From the NCBI RefSeq assembly GCF_004010195.1, contig NC_057719.1, forward strand, positions 29,885,100 through 29,913,568: a stretch of DNA of 28,469 bases, read 5' to 3'. Positions 1-27,357 of the stretch are shown piece by piece (position 1 is the first letter of the stretch; each line of letters starts with the position of its first letter). A model generated the notes under the pieces. It was given only the letters and a program-made list of their open reading frames with translations. It made no database searches and was not told where the DNA came from. A program made the position numbers and the translations under genes. This stretch comes from Chiloscyllium plagiosum. Lineage: Eukaryota.

Positions 1-123
1 TTCAGGAAGATGCCCGAAACGTCGATTCTCCTGCTCCTTGGATGCTGCCTGACCTGCTGTGCTTTTCCAGCAACACATTTTTCAGCTCTGATCTCCAGCA
101 TCTGCAGTTCTCACTTTCTCCTA
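1..123 (+). mobile_element. Penelope-like element 3' terminal (pLTR) fragment, family A, with the 3' half of a hammerhead motif; truncated by the window edge
   Basis: GCCCGAAACGTCGATTCTCCTGCTCC...CTGCCTGACCTGCTGTGCTTTTCCAGCAACACATTTTTCAGCTCTGATCTCCAGCATCTGCAG closely matches the copies at 2376-2528 and 25961-26168. Confidence 0.8.
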
Positions 124-1958: not shown

Positions 1959-2375
1959 ATGTGATAGAATTTACCCTGCAGTTTGAGAGGGAGAAGATTG
2001 AATCAGGTATAATATTATTACAATTAAGTAGAGGTAACTACAAAGATATATGGGAAGCCAGAGTTGATTGGAAGAGAAGCCTAGCAAGGACGATAGTGGA
2101 GCCACATGGTAGAACTTTCTGGATGTAATTTGGATGGCACTATAGAAATCCAAAGGAAAGAGAAACATACCAAAGGGAGGATGAAGCAACCATGGGAAAC
2201 GACGGAAATTAGGAACAGCAATTTGGCAAAATGAAAGCATACACTGTGATGAAGATTAGTGGGAAATCAGTGGATTGTGAAACCTTCAAAAACCAGCATA
2301 GGATAACTGAAAAGGCAATAAGGTGGGGAAAAGTTGCAGGAGTTTTTTTTTAGATAGCTGAAAGGTAAGAGAGAG

Positions 2376-2528
2376 CTGAAAATGTGTTGCTGGAAAAGCG
2401 CAGCAGGTCAGGCAGCATCCAGGAACAGGAGAATCGACGTTTCGGGCATAAGCCTTTCTTCAGGAAACACATTTTCCAGCAACACATTTTCAGCTCTGAT
2501 CTCCAGCATCTGCAGACCTCACTTTCTC
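2376..2528. mobile_element. Short fold-back Penelope-terminus insertion (family A) with TSD
   Basis: Minus-strand pLTR piece joined to a plus-strand piece; flanked by CTGAAAGGTAAGAGAGAG at 2358-2375 and 2529-2546 (edges may overlap element ends). Confidence 0.85.
2431..2467 (-). ncRNA. Minimal hammerhead ribozyme motif (weak stem I)
   Basis: Reverse complement reads TTTC-CTGAAGA-A-AGGC-TTAT-GCCC-GAAA-CG-TC-GATTC: conserved core, 3-bp stem II, palindromic ACGU, GUC triplet. Confidence 0.55.
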
Positions 2529-3841
2529 CTGAAAGGTAAGAGAGAGGCAGGAGTAGACATTGGACCATTGGAAAATGAGGCTGGAGAATTAGTAATAAGA
2601 ATCAAAAGAAACTGAATATGTACTTTACATGAGTCTTCACAGGAAGACACCAGCAACACAACAAAACATGAAGAGAATTGGGGCCAGAGGTCAGTGTAGT
2701 GGCTGTCACCTGAGGTGAAGGTGTTGGGGAAGCTGAGAGGTCTGAACGCAGATAATTCATCCGTACTGGATGGGCTACACCCAGGGTTCTGAATGAGATA
2801 ACTGAGGAGATTATAGAGACATAGTGGTGATCTTTCAGGAATCGCTGGAGTCCGGGAGGGTCGAGAGACAGGAAAATGGCTAACATAATTCCTCTGTTTA
2901 AGAAGGGAGAGATGCAGAAGACAGGAAACCATAGTCTGGTTAGCCTGACCTCGGTCGTGAATAAGATTTTAGTGTTCGTTATTAAGAATGAAATTGCACA
3001 ATATTTGGAAATGCATGGTAAAATAGTGTGGAATCAGCACAGCTTCGTAAGGGGAGGTCATGTCTGACAAATCTGTTAGAATTCTTTGTAGAGACAATGG
3101 ACGTGGTCTATTTGGATTTCCAGAAGGACTTTGACAAGGTGCCACATTGGAGACTGCTAAATAAGATAAGAGCCCATGGTGTTAGGGTGAGGTACTGGCA
3201 TGGGTAGAGGATTGGCTGACTGGCAGAAGGCTGAGAATGGGGATAAAGAACTCTTCCTTTGAATAACAGTTGTGACTAAGTGGAGTTCCACAGAGGTTTG
3301 TGTTGGGACTACAACTATTAACGTTAAACATTAAGGATATAGACAAAGGAACTGAGGGTATTGTTGCTGAGTGAGCAGATGACACAAAGATAGAGAGAGG
3401 GAGTGGTAGTGTTGAGGAAGTGGGGAAGCTGCAGAAAGACTTCAAAATGCAAAGCAAGTAGGCAAAGAAGTGACAGTTGGAATATAATGTGAGAAAGTGT
3501 GAGGTTGTGTCCTTTAGTAGGAAGAATAGAGGTGTAATCTATTTTCTAAACTGGGAAAGGCTTTGGACATCTAAAGCACTAAGGGATCTGGGAGTTCTAG
3601 TTCAAGATTCTCTTAAGGTTAACGTGCAGGTTCACTTGGTATTTAGGAAGGCAAATGTAGTGTTTGCATTTATTTCAAGAGGGCTAGATTACAAGAGGGT
3701 AGATGTCCTGCTGAGGCTGTCTGGACTCTAGTCAGACTGCAATTGGAAAATTGTGAGCAGTTTTGGGCCCTGTATCTAAGAAAGGAAGAACTGGCACTGG
3801 AGGGATCCAGAAGAGGTTTATAAGAATGGTTATGAGAATGA

Positions 3842-3901
3842 TCTAGTGTGCTTCCAATTAAACCTGTTGGACTATAACCTGGTGTTGGGTGATTTTTAAC
3901 T
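3842..3901 (+). mobile_element. 60-bp Penelope-terminus insertion (family B) with 15-bp TSD
   Basis: TAAACCTGTTGGACTATAACCTGGTGTTG..TGATTTTTAACT also occurs at about 5907-5952 and 16341-16385; TGGTTATGAGAATGA at 3827-3841 and 3902-3916. Confidence 0.85.
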
Positions 3902-5004
3902 TGGTTATGAGAATGAATGAATGGCTCATCATATGGGGAACAGATGATATCTGTGTGCCTGTACTTGATAGAGTTTAGAAGGATGAAGGGGAGCGTAATT
4001 GAAACGTACAGAATATCGAGAGGCCTGTATAGAGTGAACATGGAGAAGGTGTTGCCACTAGTAGGAGAGACTAGGACATAAGGGCACAACCTCAGAATGA
4101 AGAGACATTCCTTTAAAACTGAGAGGAGGAGAAATTTCTTCAGCCAGTGGGTGGTGAAGCTATGGAAGTCATTGCTGCGGATGCCAGTGGAGGCCAAGTC
4201 ATTGAATGTATTTAAGACAGCGATAGGTTCTTTATTAGTTAAGGGATCGAAAGTTATGGGGAGAGATGGGAGAATGGGGTTGAGAAACATATCAGCCATG
4301 ATCGAAAGGTGGAGCAGACTTGATGGGCCAAATAGCCTAATTCTGCTCCTGTATCTTATGTTCATTAGGTTCCATTAAATTGGAAAATGCTGGAGTACTC
4401 TGACCAGGATTTGGGTCATGTCACAGCTTCTGCTTATTCTGTCCAAAGTTAGAAGCCAAAACAGTCTATATTGCATACAAAAATAAACTAATTTCTCTTG
4501 TGCATTTTCTTAGCTCCTACTATGCTGTTTACCATTGCCTGGCCTAAAACTCCTACACTGTGTTACTTCTGTGACTGTGACTGCAAAATGATTGGAAGCC
4601 TGTCCAATTTTAGTGGAAGACAGTAGGTGGCCTGTGAGGACGCCCTCAATCAGCTCCAAACCTGAAAGGCTCACCCTTAGACTGAGCTATCTTGGGAAAG
4701 ACAATTGTAACCAAGGTTATTTAGCTGATGAGCAATAGCAACAGAATTTGCAGAGCGGCAGGGGTGGGATCACCAGTGCTGTCATCCTTCAAGAGGACAG
4801 CAGGTTTATGCTGTACTGAACCACTACCACTGTGCTAGTTTGGTGATGGACTCCTTCGTCCTTTTTGACATTGGACATGGACTTGCTAGCAGCCAAAGTA
4901 CCAGACCTTTCATTGGGTATACCCATCAGTTGTCTTCTGCAGTCTGCTCCATTGAGTTTCTCAGCTGAGTTATCGGCAACAGAAAATGTGCTGCATTATT
5001 TGGT

Positions 5005-5510: not shown

Positions 5511-5821
5511 TTTTAATACTCAATAACAGTTTTAGTATCTGAGCTGTAGGCTGTGAGTGTGAAAGTGAGTGCCTGCATTTCTTCTTCTTCATTGTCTTCT
5601 TGCTCTTCCACTTGTTCTTTTCAATCACTGCCTGGCCAGCTTATAGTTATTGGGTGTTTAAAAGGAGAAAAGATTGATTTCAGCAGGAAATGAGTGAAGT
5701 AAGAAGTGAATGTTTACATTGAATTAAGCTTCTAAGTCAGAAGACATTGTGGAATGAAGGATAAATGGGATGTGAGTAGGAAGAATAATTATAATGATAA
5801 TTTCTATTATGTGGAGAAGCT

Positions 5822-5952
5822 GGAGTTGGACTGGGGTGGACAAAGTCAAAAATCAAACAATATTAGGTTATAGTCCAACAGGTTTATTTGAAATTGCAAT
5901 TTCAAATAAACCTGTTGGACTATAACCCGGGTGTAATTTGATTTTTGACTTT
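5822..5952. repeat. Fold-back Penelope family B terminus containing a perfect 62-bp palindrome (5866-5927)
   Basis: GGTTATAGTCCAACAGGTTTATTTGAAATTG|CAATTTCAAATAAACCTGTTGGACTATAACC checked base by base; outer arms AAAGTCAAAAATCAAA and TTTGATTTTTGACTTT. Confidence 0.9.
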
Positions 5953-6779
5953 AATTTCTATTGTTTAAGTCCTGGTGCTGCCAAAGTCCTCAGCATTTAT
6001 CAGTTCATTGATCACGAACACCATCTCTGCAATGAGGTAAGGGAATGCAGCCACATCTATCCTTGGATCCTGCCACCTTCAACTGCCCTCAAACTCAATG
6101 TGCTGTGTGGGCCAAGGCCAGTCAAAGAAGGCTCATCAGAGCGCAGTAAGTTTATTTCTCTGCCTTCCACTACACCTAAGAGCAGACCTAAATTTCGCAG
6201 CTGGGGTGGAGAGAGGTTGCAGTTGGTGTTTGGCTGACAGACTTGGTCATATCAAGGTCATATCAAGACCTGCTGTGTGTCCTGTCCATATGTCCGCTTA
6301 CCACTCTCAGTTTGAACTTTCACAAGCATTATGATCACGGGGATGAGCGGTGGTCGAGGTGGTGTGTGGAGGGTCTATCCATCTCTGTACCTAGGGAAGA
6401 AGCTTCTGGGGGTCCTTTGTGTTGGTCCACATGCTCGGGTGAAGACCTTCCCACTGCAGCTTGCAGACCCTACAATAGAGGTACCATTACCCCAAAAAGG
6501 GTCAAGCAACATTTGCACTACACAAGTGTCAGACAGCAACCATAAGCAACAGGTGAGAATCTAATCATAATCCCATGACATTCATTCGCCTTTCATTACT
6601 TTCCCTGCTGCTATTAACATCCTTGCAGTTACTGTCAATGTTATACAGCTGCAGAAGGGAAAGAATGCTTTGTCAGGTGGGTATCTCTTAACTTGTAATG
6701 ATCTGCTGTTTCCTTTGTGAGTTATTTTCACTGTCCATGTGTATAGCTATACAAGATTAACGGTTGTGGAGAAAAGTAT

Positions 6780-7200: not shown

Positions 7201-7869
7201 ACCTTTTTCTTTGGTTGGTGATTCAAGGCCAGGACTAGCAGGTGATTTTGATTCCTCTATGAGGCCACAGCTCCGCCAACTTACCAAAATCGTGTGTGGT
7301 TTGAATTTGCCTATGGGCTTGCTTCCTCCATATGTCTCCTCAGTTGCCTAATATTGACAGAAACTAGAATGGGTGTGGAATTCCGAAACCAGTTCCTCCC
7401 ACCATTCTTAAACACCTACTGAGTTGACCTACTTTGGCAAAAATACAGGCACTGCTCTTGTTGTTTTTATGCTTGTATCACTTAATCCTGTACTGTGATT
7501 TGGGTGTCCATTTTCAGGGACTACTGAGTTTCACTAGCTTATATCCTCAGTTTCTATGATGCATAACCACTTGAAAACCAACCTATCAAAGGTAATTATG
7601 TACTCTATATCAGCAATCTTCATGACCTGTGGACACAGGTACATATCTATAATGATCATATGGGATGTAGAGATAATTGGCAATGTACTCCAATTTTAAC
7701 TTGATAAATATTAGTCAAATTGCATTCTCACCTGCAATAGAACACTTTTAATTGATTTTTCTGATTAGACCAAGTGAGTTTCTTCCTGCAGACTGCAGGA
7801 AATGCCCTTGTCACCCATAACCACTAACAACTTCACAATTAAGATAGTAAAACTGAAATGCTATTCATA

Positions 7870-8410
7870 GCATGTGTTGAGGGAGAATTAAGAGTTAATG
7901 CTTTGAGTCCAATATGACTTCTTCAGAGCAAAAGAGGATAGGAAAACCAACAGATTCTATATTGTAAAAAGGAAGTGGAAAGAGAAGGAGCAAGTGGAAC
8001 AGATGGTAAGGGTTTCCAAAATAAAAGGCGAGGAAAATGCTAATGGTAGGTTGAGGAAGGATATAGATGAAGCGCAGATGTTAACTGCAGAAGATGGGCC
8101 AGCTCTTCTGAGAGCATACCTATGGAAACAAGACACTTGGAGAATTGGTATTGCAGTGGGGGGGGTGTGTGTGTGCATGCATGCACATGCATGCCTTGGG
8201 GGGTGGTGGGCTGGGTGGAGGAAACCAGGCAGTAATCAAAATGGAGGACAGAGTTCATGTTGAACTCCGAGTTCAGCCCTGAAGCTCAAAGTGCCTAAGT
8301 AGAAAATGAGGTACTGATCTTTGAGCATGCGTTGGGCATCGCTGAAACACTGCTGCGACACTAGAACAGAAGTGTTATCATGAGAACAAAATTCTGTATT
8401 GATGAGGCAG
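7870..8410 (-). mobile_element. Penelope-like element 3' part (inverted arm): endonuclease C-terminus plus terminus with decayed hammerhead remnant
   Basis: ORF 8236-8424(-) SHDNTSVLVSQQCFSDAQRMLKDQYLIFYLGTL resembles the Penelope EN tail (SEAQRKLEEQHLIFRLGTL); remnant CTGAAGA-AGTC..GACTC at about 7895-7927. Confidence 0.75.
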
Positions 8411-8439
8411 AGCATTGGGTTCATGCCTGTTGAAGGTGG

Positions 8440-9590
8440 CAGAATCAGAACAGATGTGGTGGTGGCTTAGTTTTTCCTCAACTGGATTCTTCTCTCCCTA
8501 CCCCCTCCCTCAGAGATTAACAGAGTCTTCAACCAGGTCAGAACTACTTCCCACACTTCTTCCCCCATCTCTTTTCCTTATTCCCAGAACAACAATACAG
8601 TTCCCTTTTGTCATTATCTTCTACCCCACTAACTTTCACATGCAAATGATTATCCTCTGCATTGCCCATTCCCATCACTGTCAGGATGCACAACCAAACA
8701 TATATTCCTCTCTCCTGTTAGTATTGCACAAAGAAGACTGGAGCCACAGTAACATTCTTGTCCAGTCCTCTATCCTCCCAACTCCCCTTTACCACACCTC
8801 TGTGGCACCTTTCCATGCAATCACAGAAGCTGTTACACTCGCTTCTTTATTTCTTCACTCTCCAAGGCCCCAAATATACTTTCCATGTGAACCAGAGTTA
8901 GTTGTATGACTTTTAATTTAGTTCTGTATATGCTGTTCAGAATGTCATCTCCTGTACATGGTTGAAACCAAAAGTGGACTGCATGACCATTTCTTGGAAA
9001 ACCTCTGCTCTGTCTGCAAGAATGGCCCCAACCTTCTGGTCAGTTGCCATTTCAATACATTATGTGGCACTCATTGTCAGTCGTGGGCCTGTTGTAGGTT
9101 CCAGTGAAGCCCAACACAAGCTGAACGAACAGCACCATTTTTCTGCTTACGTTCTTTGCAACTTTCAAGTTTCAATGATACATTCAACACTTCAGACCAT
9201 GAACTTTCTCCTCCATTTTGATTATTCCCACTTCCTGCAACCTAACAACCCCCTAGTGTCTTGTTTGCAAGAGTTTGCTTTCAGCAGACCAGATCTATTT
9301 TGTACAATTAACAACTGCTCTTCATGTATGCCACTCACGTACCTACCATGAGCACACCCCTTCCCTTCCCTTTTGCTCTGGACATCCTTACCATCTGTCG
9401 TCCCACTTGCTCCTCCCACTTCACATTACAGCAAAAAACTCAGTGGTTTTTCAAGCTCCTTCAGTTCTGAAGAATAGTCATTTTGCATTCAAAGCATGAG
9501 CTTGGTTTCTATCTATAAATGTTGCCAGATTTATAAAGTTACTTTGTATTTTATATCTTCAACATGCGCAGTATTTTGCTTTTGCTATTA
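8440..9590 (+). mobile_element. Penelope-like retroelement, decayed linker plus GIY-YIG endonuclease and 3' terminus (family C)
   Basis: PFVIIFYPTNFHMQMIIL, GTFPCNHRSCY (Cys motif), NLVLYAVQ/LLYMVETK (GIY-YIG remnant), SSEAQHKLNEQH; AGTTCTGAAGAATAGTC hammerhead remnant at about 9463-9500. Confidence 0.85.
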
Positions 9591-11830: not shown

Positions 11831-12359
11831 ATGAAGACCAATGATTAAACAACCTCTACCCATTTATTGTGCGTAGAACATCTTAGACCTATGTGCTATT
11901 CATTCCTTAATGTGCCTCAGATTGATGCACTTGTATTGACTTGATCACAAGATCTTAACACTAAACTCTTCAGCCATCTAACCTTTCCAGTCAGGAATTT
12001 TGGGCTATCTTAACCGTTGTGTAGGAGTGATTAATGCACAGGGAAGAGTTTCACATGAATGGAGGCAAGAAAGACTTGAAAGTCATTCTTTGTTACAAAG
12101 AATTTACTGGCAGATAATCAGATACCAAGATTGGAAATATGTAAGGGAGCTGGAATCAGTTGTGATGATACAACAGGTTATGACAGAGACTGAAGACATT
12201 TTTTTCACTTGTGGAAACTGTGACACATCCATCACTGGATATTGGAGTTAATGGCAATTCAGGAGGGGGAAGGGGAACTTTTTGCTAGTTGGATGAATAT
12301 CTGGCAGAAAGAAAGATGGTTGTGGTTGTTGAAGGTCCGTCATTTCAGCTCGAGGATAT

Positions 12360-12410
12360 AGAAGAATACAGCGCAGTACAGGCCCTTTGGCCCTCGATGT
12401 TGCGCCGATC
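12360..12410 (-). mobile_element. 51-bp extreme 3' end of a young CR1, flanked by a perfect 77-bp direct duplication
   Basis: Reverse complement GATCGGCGCAACATCGAGGGCCAAAGGGCCTGTACTGCGCTGTATTCTTCT; 12283-12359 is identical to 12411-12487. Confidence 0.85.
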
Positions 12411-13139
12411 TGCTAGTTGGATGAATATCTGGCAGAAAGAAAGATGGTTGTGGTTGTTGAAGGTCCGTCATTTCAGCTCGAGGATATCTCTGCATGTTTT
12501 CCTCAGCATAGTGTCCTAGGCCAAACCACCTTCAGCTGCTTCATTAATGACTTTCCCTCCATCATAAAGTGGGGATATTCACTGGTTGATTGTGCAATAG
12601 CCAGCACTATTCATGACTCCTCAGACACTGAAGCAGTCCATTTTCAAATGCAGCAAGACCTGAACAAGAACCAGGTTTGAGTTGATAAGTGGCAAGTAAT
12701 ACTTGATAGTGAAAATTCTGCAGTGATAATGCCATTATATGTCAAGGGGTGATGATTAGATTCCATTCTTTTGGAGATGGTCATTATTAGGCATGTGTAT
12801 GGCTTGAAGTTTTTTCACTCATTCATTCATTCATTCATGAGATACAAGCAACTCTAACAGGGCCAGCATGTATTGCCCATCCCTAGTTCTCCTTGAGAAG
12901 GTGATAGTGAGCTGTTGTCTTGAATTGTTACAGCCCATGTGCTTTTCGAGCAGGCTTAATGCCACCTTCATAAGGGCAATTTGGGATGGACAGTAAATGT
13001 TGATTCAGTCAATGACACCCATGTCCCATGAATGAATTTTAAAACAAATTGAATCTCACAATTGCCCAGCAATGACTATCTGCAACAGGAGAAAATCCAA
13101 TCACCATCCCTTGATATCCAGTGACATTATCATTGGAAA

Positions 13140-14005: not shown

Positions 14006-15723
14006 TCTTTCCCACATAAAAGGATCCCTACTATCAACATCATGTTGGTTACCATTGACCAGAAATTGAATGTGCCCAGCCATATATACACATACTGTAG
14101 CTACAAAAACAGGTCAAGATGAGGAATTCTGTGGCGAGTAACTCTGTTTCCTCAATGCCTGTTTACTATCTATAAGGCACAAATCAAGAATGTGATGGAA
14201 AACTTTCCGCTTTCCTGGATGGGTGCAACTCCAATAACACTCATTCAGGACAAAGCAGCTGCTTGATTGGCACCTCATCCATCACCTTAAGTATTCACTC
14301 CCTTCTTCACTAATGCAGAGTGGCAGCAGAGGATGCCATGTACAAGATGCACTGTAGCAACTCATCAAGGCTCGCCTTGACAGTACTTTCCAAACCCACA
14401 ACCTATGCAGCCTAGAAGGACAAGGACAGCAGATGAATGGGGGCATGACAATCTTATTTTTCCCAAGATATGTGTCATTCTGACTTGGAACTATATCTTC
14501 GTACTTCACTGCTGCTAGGTAAAATTTTCAGAATTCCCTTCCGAACAGCACTGTGGGTATTCCAACACTAGATATACCACCTTCCAGGGCAATTACAGAT
14601 GGGCAATAAATGCTGGCCTAGCCAGGATTGACCACTTTCCCTTGAATGAATAAAACAAGATCAGTCTGGACCTGCACAGGAATCCATCTCCCCTATTAAA
14701 AAAGGCATAACTAAAAGCTCTCCAAACCTCGCTCATGTGGTACTGATCACTTTGATCCCACTAACTTAACCTCTCATTTCTAGTTGATCAAGTTAAAGCA
14801 GTCACAATTTAAGAACATAAGAACAAGGTGCAGGAGTAGGCAATTCAGCCCCTTGAACCTGATGTGCCATTTAATACAAGCCCCTCATCTTGGCTTCAAC
14901 TTCACTCACCTGCCCACTCGCCATAATCCTTTAACCTGTTTCTAATCAAAAAAAATTTCATAAGTCTTAGAGTCATAGAGAAATATAGCCTCAGAAATTG
15001 ACCCTTCAGTCCAACTCCTCCATGCCGACTAGATCTCTGAAATTACGTTAGTCCCATTTGCCAGCACTTGGCCCATATCCCTCTAAACTCTTCCTATTCA
15101 TATACTCATCCAGATGCCTTTTAAATGTTGTAATTGTACAAGCATCCACCACTTCCTCTGGTAGTTCATTCCATACATGCACCACCTTCTGTGGGAAAAC
15201 ATTGCCCCTTAGGTCTCTTTCCCCTCTCATCATAAGCCTATGCCATCTAGTTTTGGACTCCGCCCCCCACACAACCCCCACCACAGGGAAAAGACCTTGT
15301 CTATTTACCCTATCCATGCCCCTCATAATTTTGAAAACCTCTATCAGGTCACCCCTCAGCCTCTAACGCTCCAGGGAAAACAGTCCCAGCCTGTTCAGCC
15401 TCTCTCTATAGCTCAAATCCTCCAACCCTGGCACATCCTTGTAAGTCTTTTCTGAACCCTTTCAAATTTCACAACATCCTTCCAATAATAAGGAGACCAG
15501 AATTGCATGCAATATTGCAACAGTGGCCTAACCAATGTCCTGTATACTTGCAACATGACCTCCCAACTCCTGTACTCAATACTCTGATCAATAAAGGAAA
15601 GCATACCAAATGCTTTTTTCATTACCCCGTCTGCCTGCAACTCCACTTTCGAGGAATTGTGAACCTGCACCCCAAGGTCTCTATGTTCAGTAACACTCCC
15701 CAGGATCTTACCATTAAGTGTAT

Positions 15724-15878
15724 GTTGATAAAATATGGAGCTGGAAAAGCACAGCAAATCATGCAGCAATAGAGGAGCAGGAAAGTCGATGTTTCAGGTT
15801 GGGACCCTTCATCAGGACTGGGGAGGTGGAAGGGAGCCCAGAAATAAATACAGGCGGGGGGGGGGGGAAGGGCTGGGT
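15724..15878 (-). mobile_element. Penelope terminus (family A-related) inserted in CR1
   Basis: GCTGGAAAAGCACAGCA..GAGGAGCAGGAAAGTCGATGTTTC..CCCTTCATCAGG plus a G-run; diverged flanking repeat ATTAAGTGTA/ATTTAGTGTT. Confidence 0.8.
15784..15819 (-). ncRNA. Minimal type I hammerhead ribozyme motif
   Basis: Reverse complement AGTC-CTGATGA-A-GGGT-CCCA-ACCT-GAAA-CA-TC-GACT: 4-bp stem I (AGTC/GACT), 4-bp stem II, full core; ACGU changed to ACAU. Confidence 0.65.
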
Positions 15879-16063
15879 ATTTAGTGTTTAATTCCTGCCT
15901 TAATTTGCCTTTCCCAAAATGCAGTACCTCACATTTATCTAAATCAAACTCCATCTGCTACTCATGGCCCATTGACCCATCTGATCAAGATCCCGTTGTA
16001 CTCTGACGTAACCTTTTGCTATCCACTACACCTCTAATTTTGATGTCATCTGAAAACTTACTA

Positions 16064-16282
16064 CATCCTACCTGCATCCACCTAAAGCCATCTCACTCAC
16101 CTTTCCCCAGGCCCCACCCCCCCCATTTATTTTGCAGCTCTCTTCCCCTCCCCCAGGCCTGATGAAAGATTCTGACTTGAAACATCAGTGCTACTTCTCC
16201 TCTGCTGCTTGACCTGCTGTGCTTTTTCCAGCTCCAATCCTTATCTACTGACTCTCCAGCACCTGTAGTTCTCACTGTCTCT
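16064..16282 (+). mobile_element. Penelope terminus (family A-related) with decayed hammerhead core at 16159-16186
   Basis: CTGATGAAAGATTCTGACTTGAAACATC; GACCTGCTGTGCTTTTTCCAGC; flanks AAACTTACTA (16054-16063) and AAACTAACTA (16283-16292). Confidence 0.75.
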
Positions 16283-16293
16283 AAACTAACTAA

Positions 16294-16387
16294 TAACCAC
16301 CTGATGAAGAAGCAGCATTTTGAAAGCTAGTGCTTTCAAATAAACCTGTTGAACTTTAACTTAGTGTTGTGTGATTTTTAACTTTGC
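16294..16387 (+). mobile_element. Penelope terminus (family B) beginning at its hammerhead motif
   Basis: CAAATAAACCTGTTGAACTTTAAC..GTGTTGTGTGATTTTTAACTTTG matches 3842-3901 and 5903-5952. Confidence 0.8.
16298..16332 (+). ncRNA. Minimal type I hammerhead ribozyme motif (family B)
   Basis: CAC-CTGATGA-A-GAAG-CAGCA-TTTT-GAAA-GC-TA-GTG: stem I CAC/GTG, stem II with two G-U pairs, palindromic AGCU, CUA triplet. Confidence 0.6.
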
Positions 16388-19052: not shown

Positions 19053-19721
19053 AGGGTTATCTTGGGGAATGAGGAAGGAGGAGAGACACTGAATAAATGT
19101 TTTTTACATCTGTTTTCACAATGGAAAATGCAATAATCTCAGAAGTAAATGGTAACTAAGGGCCTAATGAAAATGAAGGACATAAGATGAAAACCAGTAA
19201 ATCCCTGGGATCTGATGGTTTGCACCTTTAAGTTCTAGGTGAGGTAGCTGCAGAAATAGTGAATGCACTTGCTCTATCCAAAATTCCCTAGATTGTAGAA
19301 TGAATTATAAATTAGCATATGACTTTACTATTCTCAAAAGGAGGGAAAGTGAGATCAGGAATTACAGCTCAGTTAGCTTGACGCCAATCATCAGGAAAAT
19401 GCTAGAACCTGACATTAAAGAATTCTTAACAGTGCTCTTAGAAAAATTATGATATGATCAGACAAGATCAACATGAGCTTATTAAAGAGATACATTATTG
19501 ATGAATTTTATTTTAAGGAAATAGGGTAAATAAATGATATGATATACAGGATTTCCAGAGGCTTTCAGTAAAGTGGCACAGTAAATGGGAATACACAAGC
19601 TTAAGGGCTCATGAAATTGGGGGTAATATATCAGCATGGATGGAAGACTGGTTTACAGATACAAGGTAGAGAACAGGAATAAACCAGGTATTTTCATGTT
19701 GGCAAGTTGTAACTAATGGAG

Positions 19722-19767
19722 AAAGTGAGGACTGCAGATGCTGTAGATCAGCAACACATTATCAGCT
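19722..19767. mobile_element. 46-bp inverted Penelope family A micro-insertion with TSD up to 19 bp
   Basis: AAAGTGAGGACTGCAGATGCTGTAGATCAG (minus piece) joined to CAGCAACACATTATCAGCT (plus piece); CAAGTTGTAACTAATGGAG at 19703-19721 and 19768-19786. Confidence 0.85.
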
Positions 19768-19844
19768 CAAGTTGTAACTAATGGAGTGCTGCAAGTATCA
19801 GTGCTGGAACCTTAGCTATTTACAATTTATACGATTAGCTTAGA

Positions 19845-22755: not shown

Positions 22756-22998
22756 TAAATAAAAGCAAAAAATAGCAGATGGTGGAAATATGAAATCAAT
22801 TCAAAATGCTGGTAGCATTTGTGGAGAGAGAAAAAAGGAATTAATGTTTTGAGTGCAATGATTTCAGAAATCCAAGAACTTCTGAAGAAGAGTCTTTGGA
22901 CTCAGTGTTAATTCTGTTTTCTTTTCCTCTCTCTCTGTCTCTTAGCCGATGCTGCGAGACCAAATGCATTCCTCCAGCACTTTCTGTTTTTGATACAG
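22756..22998. mobile_element. Fold-back Penelope terminus (family C) with decayed hammerhead
   Basis: Antisense then sense terminus; CTGAAGA-A-GAGTC-TTTG-GACTC at about 22882-22903 with GAAA lost; similar to 7870-7930 and 9460-9590. Confidence 0.7.
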
Positions 22999-25885: not shown

Positions 25886-27357
25886 AGAGTCATAGAGTCA
25901 TACAGTAATACAGTATGGAAACAGGCCCTTCAGCCCAAACTGGTCCATGCTGACCATGGTCAAGATTAGAGTGGTGCTGGAAAAGTACAGCAGGTCAGGC
26001 AGCATCTGAGAAGCAGGGAAATCGACGTTTCGGGTAAAAGTCCTTCATCAGGTTTTTGCCCGAAACATCTATTTTCCTGCTTCTCAGATGCTGCCTGACC
26101 TGCTGTGCCTTTCCAGCACCACTCTAATCTTGACTCTGATCCCCAGCATCTGCAGTCCTCACTTTCGTCATGCTGACCATGGTGCCCGCACAGCTAGTTC
26201 CAATTGCCCGCATTTGCTCCATATCCCTCTAAACCCGTCCCATCCATGTACCTATCCAAATATTTTTAAAATGTTGCTATTGTACCGACCTCAACCACTT
26301 TTTCTGGCAGTCCATTCCATATATGCACCACTCTTTGTGTGAAGAAGTTGGCAGTCCGGTTCTTAAGTTTTTTTTTCCCCTCCCACCTTAAACCTATTCC
26401 CCCTAGTTTTCAAATTCCCCATCTGTGAGAAAAAGACTGTATGCATTCATCCTATCTATTCCCCTCATGATTTTATAAACCTCAATAAGGTCACCCCTCA
26501 TTCTCCTACATTACAAGGAATAAAGTCCTATTCTGGTCAACCTCTCCCTACAACTCAGGCCTACTAGTCCTGGCAACATCCTCATAAATCTTCTTCGCAC
26601 TCTTTCCAGTTTAACTATGCCTTTTTTATAACAGGGTGAACGGCACTATGCACAATACTCCCAAGTGCAGCTTCACCAACGATCTATATGACTGCTTCAT
26701 AACGTCCCAACTCTTATACTCAATGCCTCAACCAATGAAGGCCAGCATGCTAAGTGCCTTTTTCACCACCCGGTCCACCTGTGATGCTGCTTTCAAAGAA
26801 CTATGTATTGTACTCCAAGATCCCTCTGTTCCACAGCACTCCACAGAATCTTACCATTTATTGTATAAGTCCTACCTTGGTTTGACTTTCCAACGTGCAA
26901 CACCTCACATCTATCTGTATTGAATTGTGTTTGCCAATGCTTAGCTTACTTCCCTATCTGATCAAGGTCCCTCTGTAATTTTTGATAACCTTCCTCGCTA
27001 TCAATGATACCTCTAAATTTTGTATCATCACAAACTGACTAATCATACCTTTTACATTCACATCCAGATCATTTATGTAAATAAGAAATAACAAAGGTCC
27101 CAGCACCGACCCCAGTGGCACGCTACTAGCTACAGGACTCCAATCCAAAAAACAATCCTTCAACCATCATCCTCTGCTTCCTCCCATTGAGCCAATTTTG
27201 AATCCAATTAGCTAGCTCTCCCTGGATCCTGTGCAACCTAACCTTCATGACTAGCCTGCCATATGGAACCTTGTCAAAGGCCTTACTAAAGTTCATATAG
27301 ACAACATTCATTGTCCTACCCTCATCAATCCTCTTGGTTACCTCCTTGAAAGAAATC
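25886..27357 (-). mobile_element. CR1 RT remnant with 3' UTR, nested
   Basis: VVYMNFSKAFDKVPYGRL..WIQNWLNGRKQR, SVPLGSVLGPLLFLIYINDLD; tail AGAGTCATAGAGTCAT. Confidence 0.9.
25961..26168. mobile_element. Fold-back Penelope family A insertion with perfect 15-bp TSD and hammerhead core (26021-26052, minus)
   Basis: CATGCTGACCATGGT at 25946-25960 and 26169-26183; about 75-bp inverted arms; reverse complement CTGATGA-A-GGACTTTTACCC-GAAA-CG-TC. Confidence 0.88.

What the first reader, a model, noticed from the sequence alone, without database searches (positions are those of the whole stretch)
25946..26183. Non-coding fold-back Penelope mini-elements with long TSDs behave like a mobile family of their own
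Seen: a 208-bp insert made only of two oppositely oriented terminus pieces, joined at the hammerhead and flanked by a perfect 15-bp TSD. The same design appears at 2376-2528 (flank repeat up to 18 bp), probably at 1-123, and in other families at 5822-5952 and 22756-22998. In family A copies the inversion junction lies within a few bases of the CTGANGA core. Established: Penelope insertions often carry inverted truncated pLTRs. Inference: a short, ribozyme-delimited RNA may be the template mobilised in trans by a Penelope RT/GIY-YIG protein, a retrozyme- or SINE-like system; alternatively these are extreme truncations of full elements.
Basis: partly seen in the sequence, partly recalled or inferred. 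Interest (0 to 1): 0.7.

Follow-up and report, generated by a model that had tools for sequence, protein, structure and literature searches.

The report
Two-ended Penelope retrotransposon insertion stub
This 208-base hairpin with a perfect 15-base landing-site duplication is real, but it is the smallest form of a known Penelope-type jumping-gene insertion, likely built on the spot from two short DNA copies of the element's end rather than being a self-spreading, ribozyme-cut element.

Summary
In detail: 25961-26168 is a 208-bp insert with an exact 15-bp TSD, and uninterrupted host-repeat copies carry that 15-mer once. It consists of an inverted 92-nt arm and a direct 116-nt arm whose last 36 nt (the 'tail') occur on one side only. 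That is the published Penelope-like (PLE) layout in miniature.

The ribozyme-delimited reading fails. The arms begin 29 and 17 nt upstream of the predicted cut, the core is decayed and lacks stem I, and it is buried in the hairpin. The four family-A fold-backs in the window have four different junctions.

Breakpoints are not smooth, though: 6 of 18 arm ends lie 1-5 nt before the core, likely the RNA's 5' end. Best reading: both cut ends of the target prime cDNA, and the two cDNAs are joined head to head. No autonomous partner was confirmed. This scan reported the same thing many times on other DNA.

The parts
25946..25960 (.). Left target-site duplication, 15 bp
   Evidence: empty-site joints
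25961..26052 (-). Inverted, tail-less arm (92 nt); its 5' end lies 1 nt before C3 of the hammerhead core
26024..26051 (-). Decayed minimal type-I hammerhead core (CTGATGA...GAAACGTC); predicted cut between 26024 and 26023; stem I reduced to 1 bp, stem II with 2 mismatches
   Evidence: cut position from standard hammerhead numbering
26053..26132 (+). Direct arm, starts at +11 (end of stem II 5' strand/loop II), lacks CTGATGA; 73 of 80 nt identical to the left arm
26133..26168 (+). 36-nt one-sided PLE 'tail'
   Evidence: definition in PMC8557442, PMC3846280
26169..26183 (.). Right target-site duplication, 15 bp
2358..2546 (.). Family-A fold-back, 153-bp insert, 18-bp flank repeat; left arm ends at -3, right arm starts at +66 and carries the tail
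1..123 (.). Family-A fold-back cut by the window start; left arm ends at -3, right arm starts at +14 and carries the tail
19703..19786 (.).
5798..5966 (.). Family-B fold-back, TSD 13/15; perfect 31-bp palindrome centred at 5896/5897, about 1-2 nt after the predicted cut
3827..3916 (+). Family-B single-arm insert (60 bp), exact 15-bp TSD, 5' end within about 3 nt of the predicted cut
22756..22998 (.). Family-C fold-back; both arms start about 2 nt before CTGA, 10-nt filler, no clear TSD
7860..9590 (.). Old, long family-C fold-back: arms 7893-8348 / 9098-9502 about 68% complementary, cores at 7926(-) and 9467(+), junction hundreds of nt upstream of the core; outer limits approximate
15714..15890 (-). 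Older family-A-like single arm running about 65 nt upstream of the core; hammerhead with 4-bp stem I; TSD 8/10
16054..16386 (+). Older family-A-like single arm (TSD 9/10 at 16054/16283) followed by a family-B copy starting 3-5 nt before its core (3-bp stem I)

Best explanation
The insert is a head-to-head pair of short Penelope-like (PLE) end pieces between a 15-bp target duplication, likely made in a single insertion event in which both cut ends of the target primed reverse transcription and the two short cDNAs were then joined. Inferred steps: (1) the GIY-YIG endonuclease nicks both strands about 15 nt apart; (2) one target end primes at the distal (tail) start site and the other at the proximal site 36 nt further in; (3) each cDNA runs 90-120 nt towards the RNA's 5' end, and one reaches a fixed stop just before the hammerhead core, likely the transcription start of an uncut RNA, while the other stops earlier or is trimmed; (4) the 3' ends are joined bluntly, by microhomology or with filler, and the gaps are filled. 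The product is predicted to be a dead-end copy, assembled anew at each site.
For: Shown in sequence: top strand reads TSD - antisense arm - sense arm - TSD, and neither arm contains the other (left alone has -1 to +10, right alone has the 36-nt tail), so neither is a plain copy of the other. One long end and one short end occur in 3 of 3 complete family-A fold-backs and in family B. Four family-A fold-backs have four junctions: (-1,+11), (-3,+66), (-3,+14), (+90,+71). Insert sizes with exact TSDs of 15 nt or more are 46, 60, 153 and 208 bp, and a 1.7-kb family-C copy has the same layout. Six of 18 inner ends lie at -1 to -5 of the core; binomial P about 1.6e-6 for the 16 ends within 100 nt, 6e-5 after allowing for window choice (hand-mapped, arms not independent). 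In DNA runs the loose-end consensus beyond the core keeps only 4-7 shared letters in 8 of 8 rows that reach it, then diverges (agreement 0.37 for the three rows that start at 26052). Both arms share a variant carried by only about 10% of family depth (26011/26082), so they had one source variant. Literature: anole PAc protein cuts and extends both strands, starts RT at two internal sites that bracket the tail, uses uncut RNA and needs no hammerhead cleavage (PMC11167929). Inverted pLTR + one-sided 30-40 bp tail + TSD is the standard EN+ PLE layout (PMC8557442, PMC3846280).
Against: No genome was held, so there is no junction census; n is 7 fold-backs and 18 arm ends. No transcription start was mapped. 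A cap-templated extra G was seen at 0 of 5 testable front-edge ends. A few fold-back joints in public contigs have multi-copy depth (289, 204, 119, 112 against about 10-30 for single-copy pieces), and one (26006->26087) recurs in two organisms (tables 5 and 5c); these could be amplified units. The family-B junction is a perfect zero-spacer palindrome, which self-priming explains more simply. Later deletion at the hairpin centre could also produce unequal junctions. The parent ORF was not confirmed.
Confidence: 0.7

Rival explanations
1. Fold-back by self-priming: one cDNA (or an antisense template) loops back and copies itself, as proposed for rotifer PLE palindromes, and later central deletions make the junctions unequal.
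For: PMC3846280 proposes self-priming for palindromic inverted junctions. Family B at 5896/5897 is a perfect 31-bp palindrome whose arms share a 2-nt insertion. Focal arms share a rare variant.
Against: The focal arms each hold sequence the other lacks. The tail-less outer end recurs at the same family position in separate copies (2376 left, 19722 right), which suits a second priming site better than the end of a self-copy.
Confidence: 0.13
2. A non-autonomous fold-back element (SINE- or MITE-like) is transcribed as one short RNA and mobilised as a unit in trans by a PLE protein.
For: Very high copy number: about 28,000 contig pieces on one 92-nt arm per run. A few junctions with multi-copy depth. 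Non-autonomous PLE derivatives and in-trans capture are known (PMC8557442, PMC3846280).
Against: 4 of 4 family-A junctions in the window differ. No listed contig spans the whole stretch, and the 409/389/354 loose ends at 26052 do not continue into this junction (listing cut). A unit RNA would be an 88-bp duplex hiding its own start sites. No tRNA head or Pol III B box.
Confidence: 0.09
3. A hammerhead-cleaved or circular (retrozyme-like) short RNA is the template.
For: The motif is a genuine minimal hammerhead, with different stem I pairings in two families (AGTC/GACT, CAC/GTG). Three family-B ends lie within about 3 nt of the predicted cut. A 2026 preprint derives animal retrozymes from PLE pLTRs. 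Two contigs show a head-to-tail joint 26052->25971.
Against: No family-A or family-C arm (0 of 14) starts at the cut; focal arms start 29 and 17 nt upstream. No tandem array of the unit in the window. Arms are head to head, not head to tail. PAc uses uncut RNA. No start/end pile-up in 3,657 polyA single-cell reads (weak, since this library would miss such RNAs).
Confidence: 0.05
4. Ordinary smooth 5' truncation of cDNAs started at the 3' end of a full-length RNA, with no special stop point.
For: Four arms run 40-1000 nt upstream of the core, and right-arm starts are scattered.
Against: 6 of 18 ends fall in a 5-nt window, and loose-end consensus is lost 4-7 nt past the core in three organisms.
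Confidence: 0.03

Closest known systems
Complex insertions of EN+ Penelope-like elements: inverted 5'-truncated copy/pLTR + one-sided 30-40 bp tail + TSD (Craig et al. 2021 PMC8557442, passages; Arkhipova et al. 2013 PMC3846280, passages)
   Same: Head-to-head inverted arm, tail on one end only (36 nt), TSD, minimal hammerhead in the terminal repeat.
   Different: No ORF between the arms; TSDs here 11-19 bp against 8-10 bp in the rotifer examples seen; one arm tends to stop at the hammerhead's 5' edge, which I did not find described in the passages read.
Poseidon of Anolis carolinensis (PAc), Frangieh et al. 2024 PMC11167929 (main text parts 1-2 of 4 read; supplements not seen)
   Same: Two RT start sites bracket the tail about 110 nt downstream of the hammerhead; both strands cut and extended; uncut RNA is the template.
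   Different: In PAc the ORF starts at the hammerhead; here the ATG in the core reads into a stop within 18 codons. PAc priming is reported as non-homologous; here 0-4 nt matches are seen at outer junctions. Clade not determined.
Minimal hammerheads of metazoan PLEs (Cervera and De la Pena 2014 PMC4209133, parts 1-2 of 4 read)
   Same: Core layout with no helix III, extra base before stem II, palindromic ACGT; mostly single motifs in truncated PLEs; pairs on opposite strands 100-700 bp apart already noted in Schistosoma.
   Different: The focal copy has only one, decayed core.
Non-LTR (animal) retrozymes (Cervera and De la Pena 2020 PMC7229834, passages; Li et al. 2026 bioRxiv 10.64898/2026.07.22.740005, parts 1-2 of 5 read)
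   Same: Non-coding, type-I hammerhead, PLE pLTR-related, dependent on a PLE protein in trans.
   Different: Retrozymes are head-to-tail tandem repeats cut into linear and circular monomers; this is a head-to-head pair whose ends are not at the cut.
L1 twin priming (recalled, not read)
   Same: Both target ends prime cDNA, giving an inversion inside one TSD.
   Different: L1 arms copy non-overlapping RNA segments; here both arms copy the same segment.

Membership tests
EN+ Penelope-like element insertion | Inverted 5'-truncated copy joined head to head | tested here: met
EN+ Penelope-like element insertion | 30-40 bp tail on one end only | tested here: met
   36 nt focal, about 33 nt at 2376
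EN+ Penelope-like element insertion | Target-site duplication | tested here: met
   15/15, empty-site joints
EN+ Penelope-like element insertion | Minimal type-I hammerhead motif in the terminal repeat | tested here: met
   Motif present by own descriptor; decayed in the focal copy; Rfam found no hammerhead at E<=1; cleavage untested
EN+ Penelope-like element insertion | Parent element encodes PLE RT plus GIY-YIG endonuclease | tested here: inconclusive
   8400-9250 reads like a decayed linker/GIY-YIG end by recall only; Pfam, homologue, phmmer and atlas searches gave nothing valid. It belongs to family C, not A
PLE clade (Penelope/Poseidon, Neptune, Nematis) | RT phylogeny and linker motif | not testable with these tools
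   No intact ORF obtained
Non-LTR retrozyme | Head-to-tail tandem units each with a hammerhead | tested here: not met
   No such array in the window; arms inverted; one tandem joint in 2 of 28,401 X1 contig pieces
Non-LTR retrozyme | Unit ends at hammerhead cut sites | tested here: not met
   Focal arms start 29 and 17 nt upstream of the cut
Non-LTR retrozyme | Linear and circular monomer RNAs | not testable with these tools
   Only a polyA single-cell run was laid; no pile-up
SINE-like non-autonomous unit | Fixed internal structure (same junction) in independent insertions | tested here: not met
   4 of 4 family-A junctions differ; genome-wide listing cut, with a few multi-copy joints
SINE-like non-autonomous unit | tRNA/5S/7SL head or Pol III boxes | tested here: not met
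   No tRNA, no such Rfam match, no B box, one loose A-box match

The most novel reading that the evidence does not exclude
These stubs record the unsolved PLE insertion cycle: both nicked target ends prime at the two internal start sites near the RNA's 5' end, the tail-less cDNA runs off a transcription start placed directly before the uncut hammerhead, and the tail-bearing cDNA follows on the same RNA and stops short. This would explain inverted pLTRs, the one-sided tail, long TSDs and the abundance of solo hammerheads in one model, and would be testable on thousands of copies.
Probability: 0.35. Interest if true: 0.55.

Novelty: new member of a known kind. Interest (0 to 1): 0.3.

Why it matters
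It is not a new mobile system. Its value is as evidence on mechanism: how PLEs make inverted ends and tails is described as undefined (PMC8557442), and these minimal insertions show both priming ends, both stop points and the TSD in about 200 bp. If the fixed stop is the RNA start, genome sequence alone maps PLE promoters. For annotation, such hairpins should not be called MITEs or microRNA precursors; the family-B copy gave weak Rfam miRNA matches far below threshold.

Tried and rejected
Exact-pattern scans of metagenome, viral and prokaryotic collections found 0 loci. Sequence look-up of earlier findings gave 0. The run search listed no RNA holder, which is no evidence on expression.

Using one arm as reference to count fold-back junctions largely failed: only 2 opposite-strand joints were reported among about 57,000 contig pieces, each different and of single-copy depth, so it is not a census. 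The 409/389/354 loose ends at 26052 are confounded, because the reference itself turns there; only their low agreement is informative. Summed contig depth was not used as copy number.

Attempts to confirm the 8400-9250 remnant as PLE protein failed: Pfam, homologue searches, atlas. The three phmmer hits were repetitive proteins and were rejected. The regex cut one base late and was corrected. My strict hammerhead descriptor missed the focal core because its stem II is decayed.

Cap-templated G: 0 of 5 ends. A shared nick motif at TSD edges was not claimed (5 sites only). Stalling of RT at the hammerhead fold was rejected as the cause of the cluster, because RT meets the 3' side first and the cluster lies beyond the 5' side. 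A splice acceptor as boundary was considered (pyrimidine tract + AG before the core in the two older copies) but would give a shared upstream exon, which was not seen.

Full report
Observation. The 15-mer at 25946-25960 recurs exactly at 26169-26183 around a 208-bp insert. Exact repeats of 15 nt or more at 40-400 nt spacing number 5 in the window against 0.01 in 200 shuffles, and 4 of the 5 flank pieces of the same element class. Public contigs of three coded organisms join 25945 to 26169 with the 15-mer present once (12, 9 and 9 contigs). The flank is itself a repeat (76% to 15049-15204; CR1-type by recall, no Pfam match), so these are probably paralogous uninterrupted host copies. They still show that the 15-mer was duplicated on insertion. 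No genome was available. 'Shark-like' comes from recall and from earlier notes of the scan, not from a test.

Anatomy. The left arm (25961-26052, minus) starts 1 nt before the CTGATGA core. The right arm starts at +11 and is identical at 73 of 80 positions. It then carries 36 nt that the left arm lacks. By standard hammerhead numbering the cut follows GAAACGTC, so the arms begin 29 and 17 nt upstream of it. In this copy stem I is 1 bp and stem II has two mismatches, and the whole insert folds into one long duplex (-146 kcal/mol, z -20). The motif class is real: older copies keep a 4-bp (AGTC/GACT) and a 3-bp (CAC/GTG) stem I with different letters. Rfam reports no hammerhead at E<=1. Both arms share a base that about 90% of family depth lacks (26011/26082), so they come from one source variant.

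Other copies. I found 7 fold-backs and 4 single arms in the window. The four family-A fold-backs have four junctions: (-1,+11), (-3,+66), (-3,+14) and (+90,+71). The last, 19722-19767, is only 46 bp, has a 19-bp flank repeat and contains no hammerhead. Family C has a mini copy with both arms at about -2 and a 1.7-kb copy whose arms (68% complementary) meet hundreds of bases upstream of the core. The inside of the long copy reads like a decayed PLE linker and GIY-YIG end, but that is recall; eight tool searches did not confirm it. Family B differs: a perfect 31-bp palindrome centred 1-2 nt after the predicted cut, and a single arm with a 15-bp TSD starting within about 3 nt of the cut.

Are breakpoints smooth? 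No. Of 18 hand-mapped inner ends, 6 lie at -1 to -5 of the core, 3 near the cut (all family B, two events), 2 in stem/loop II, 3 further downstream and 4 well upstream. For the 16 within 100 nt, P is about 1.6e-6, or 6e-5 after allowing for window choice; arms of one event are not independent. In DNA runs, the loose-end consensus past the core keeps 4-7 shared letters in all 8 listed rows that reach it and then differs between rows, with agreement 0.37 where it starts at 26052. This fits a common 5' boundary just before the core, though my reference ends there and the listings are cut. The boundary is not the cleavage site.

Is it a unit? In the window no junction is repeated. In contigs, 7 of the 15 listed joints (of 570) lie inside the hairpin at different positions, 12-44 nt from the core edge on the left arm. 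Against my reading, some joints have depth 112-289 where single-copy pieces have about 10-30, and one recurs in two organisms. Microhomology hot spots, duplication or true unit amplification could each explain this. The attempted junction census failed. In 3,657 polyA single-cell reads no start or end pile-up was listed, which is weak evidence.

Mechanism. Shown: layout, TSD, one-sided tail, unequal junctions, clustering. From the literature: the anole PLE protein cuts and extends both strands, starts at two internal sites that bracket the tail, and uses uncut RNA (PMC11167929; supplements with the genomic end maps not seen). Inferred: both target ends prime, giving antisense-then-sense arms inside one TSD. 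A start site about 100-130 nt from the RNA's 5' end makes short run-off cDNAs an expected by-product. In 2 of 2 complete hammerhead-containing family-A fold-backs the tail-less arm reaches the edge and the tail-bearing arm stops short, which suits sequential copying of one RNA but rests on very few copies. The RNA start was not mapped, and no extra G was seen at 0 of 5 testable ends. The run-off idea was taken from earlier notes of the scan.

Comparison. The layout is that of EN+ PLE insertions (PMC8557442 and PMC3846280, passages; PMC8969392, passages). Opposite-strand hammerhead pairs and solo motifs in truncated PLEs were noted in 2014 (PMC4209133). It fails the retrozyme tests (PMC7229834; bioRxiv 10.64898/2026.07.22.740005). 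In D. virilis the transcription start lies well upstream of the hammerhead, before an intron (PMC2377424 passages), so a start at the core edge is not general. Seven paper searches found no description of ORF-less fold-back stubs in cartilaginous fish or of the edge cluster; subscription papers and supplements were not covered. The scan holds 71 earlier findings with these words in at least 12 genomes.

Verdict. Real feature, known kind. What remains of interest is the mechanistic record. Interest 0.3.

Noticed in passing
window 19703-19786: 46-bp family-A fold-back with a 19-bp flank repeat and no hammerhead; smallest copy seen.
   Followed up: yes
window 7860-9590: Old 1.7-kb family-C fold-back whose inside resembles (by recall) a decayed PLE linker and GIY-YIG end; not confirmed by any search.
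   Followed up: partly
window 3827-3916 and 5798-5966: Family-B 5' ends lie within about 3 nt of the predicted hammerhead cut, unlike families A and C; cleaved templates may be used in this family.
   Followed up: partly
window 15817-15850 (-) and 16125-16157 (+): Older family-A-like copies have a pyrimidine tract plus AG ending 2 nt before the core, like a splice acceptor; D. virilis Penelope has an intron ending at helix I (PMC4209133). The young family's tail end also looks acceptor-like.
   Followed up: no
window 12283-12487: Perfect 77-bp direct repeat, 128 bp apart; recent duplication or assembly artefact.
   Followed up: no
window 26000-26110 (joints in runs X1, X7): A few fold-back junctions with multi-copy depth (112-289), one shared by two organisms; candidates for amplified units or hot spots.
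   Followed up: no
window 5851-5942: The family-B hairpin gives weak Rfam matches to plant-type miRNA precursor models (40-41 bits against thresholds 135-200): false positives.
   Followed up: yes
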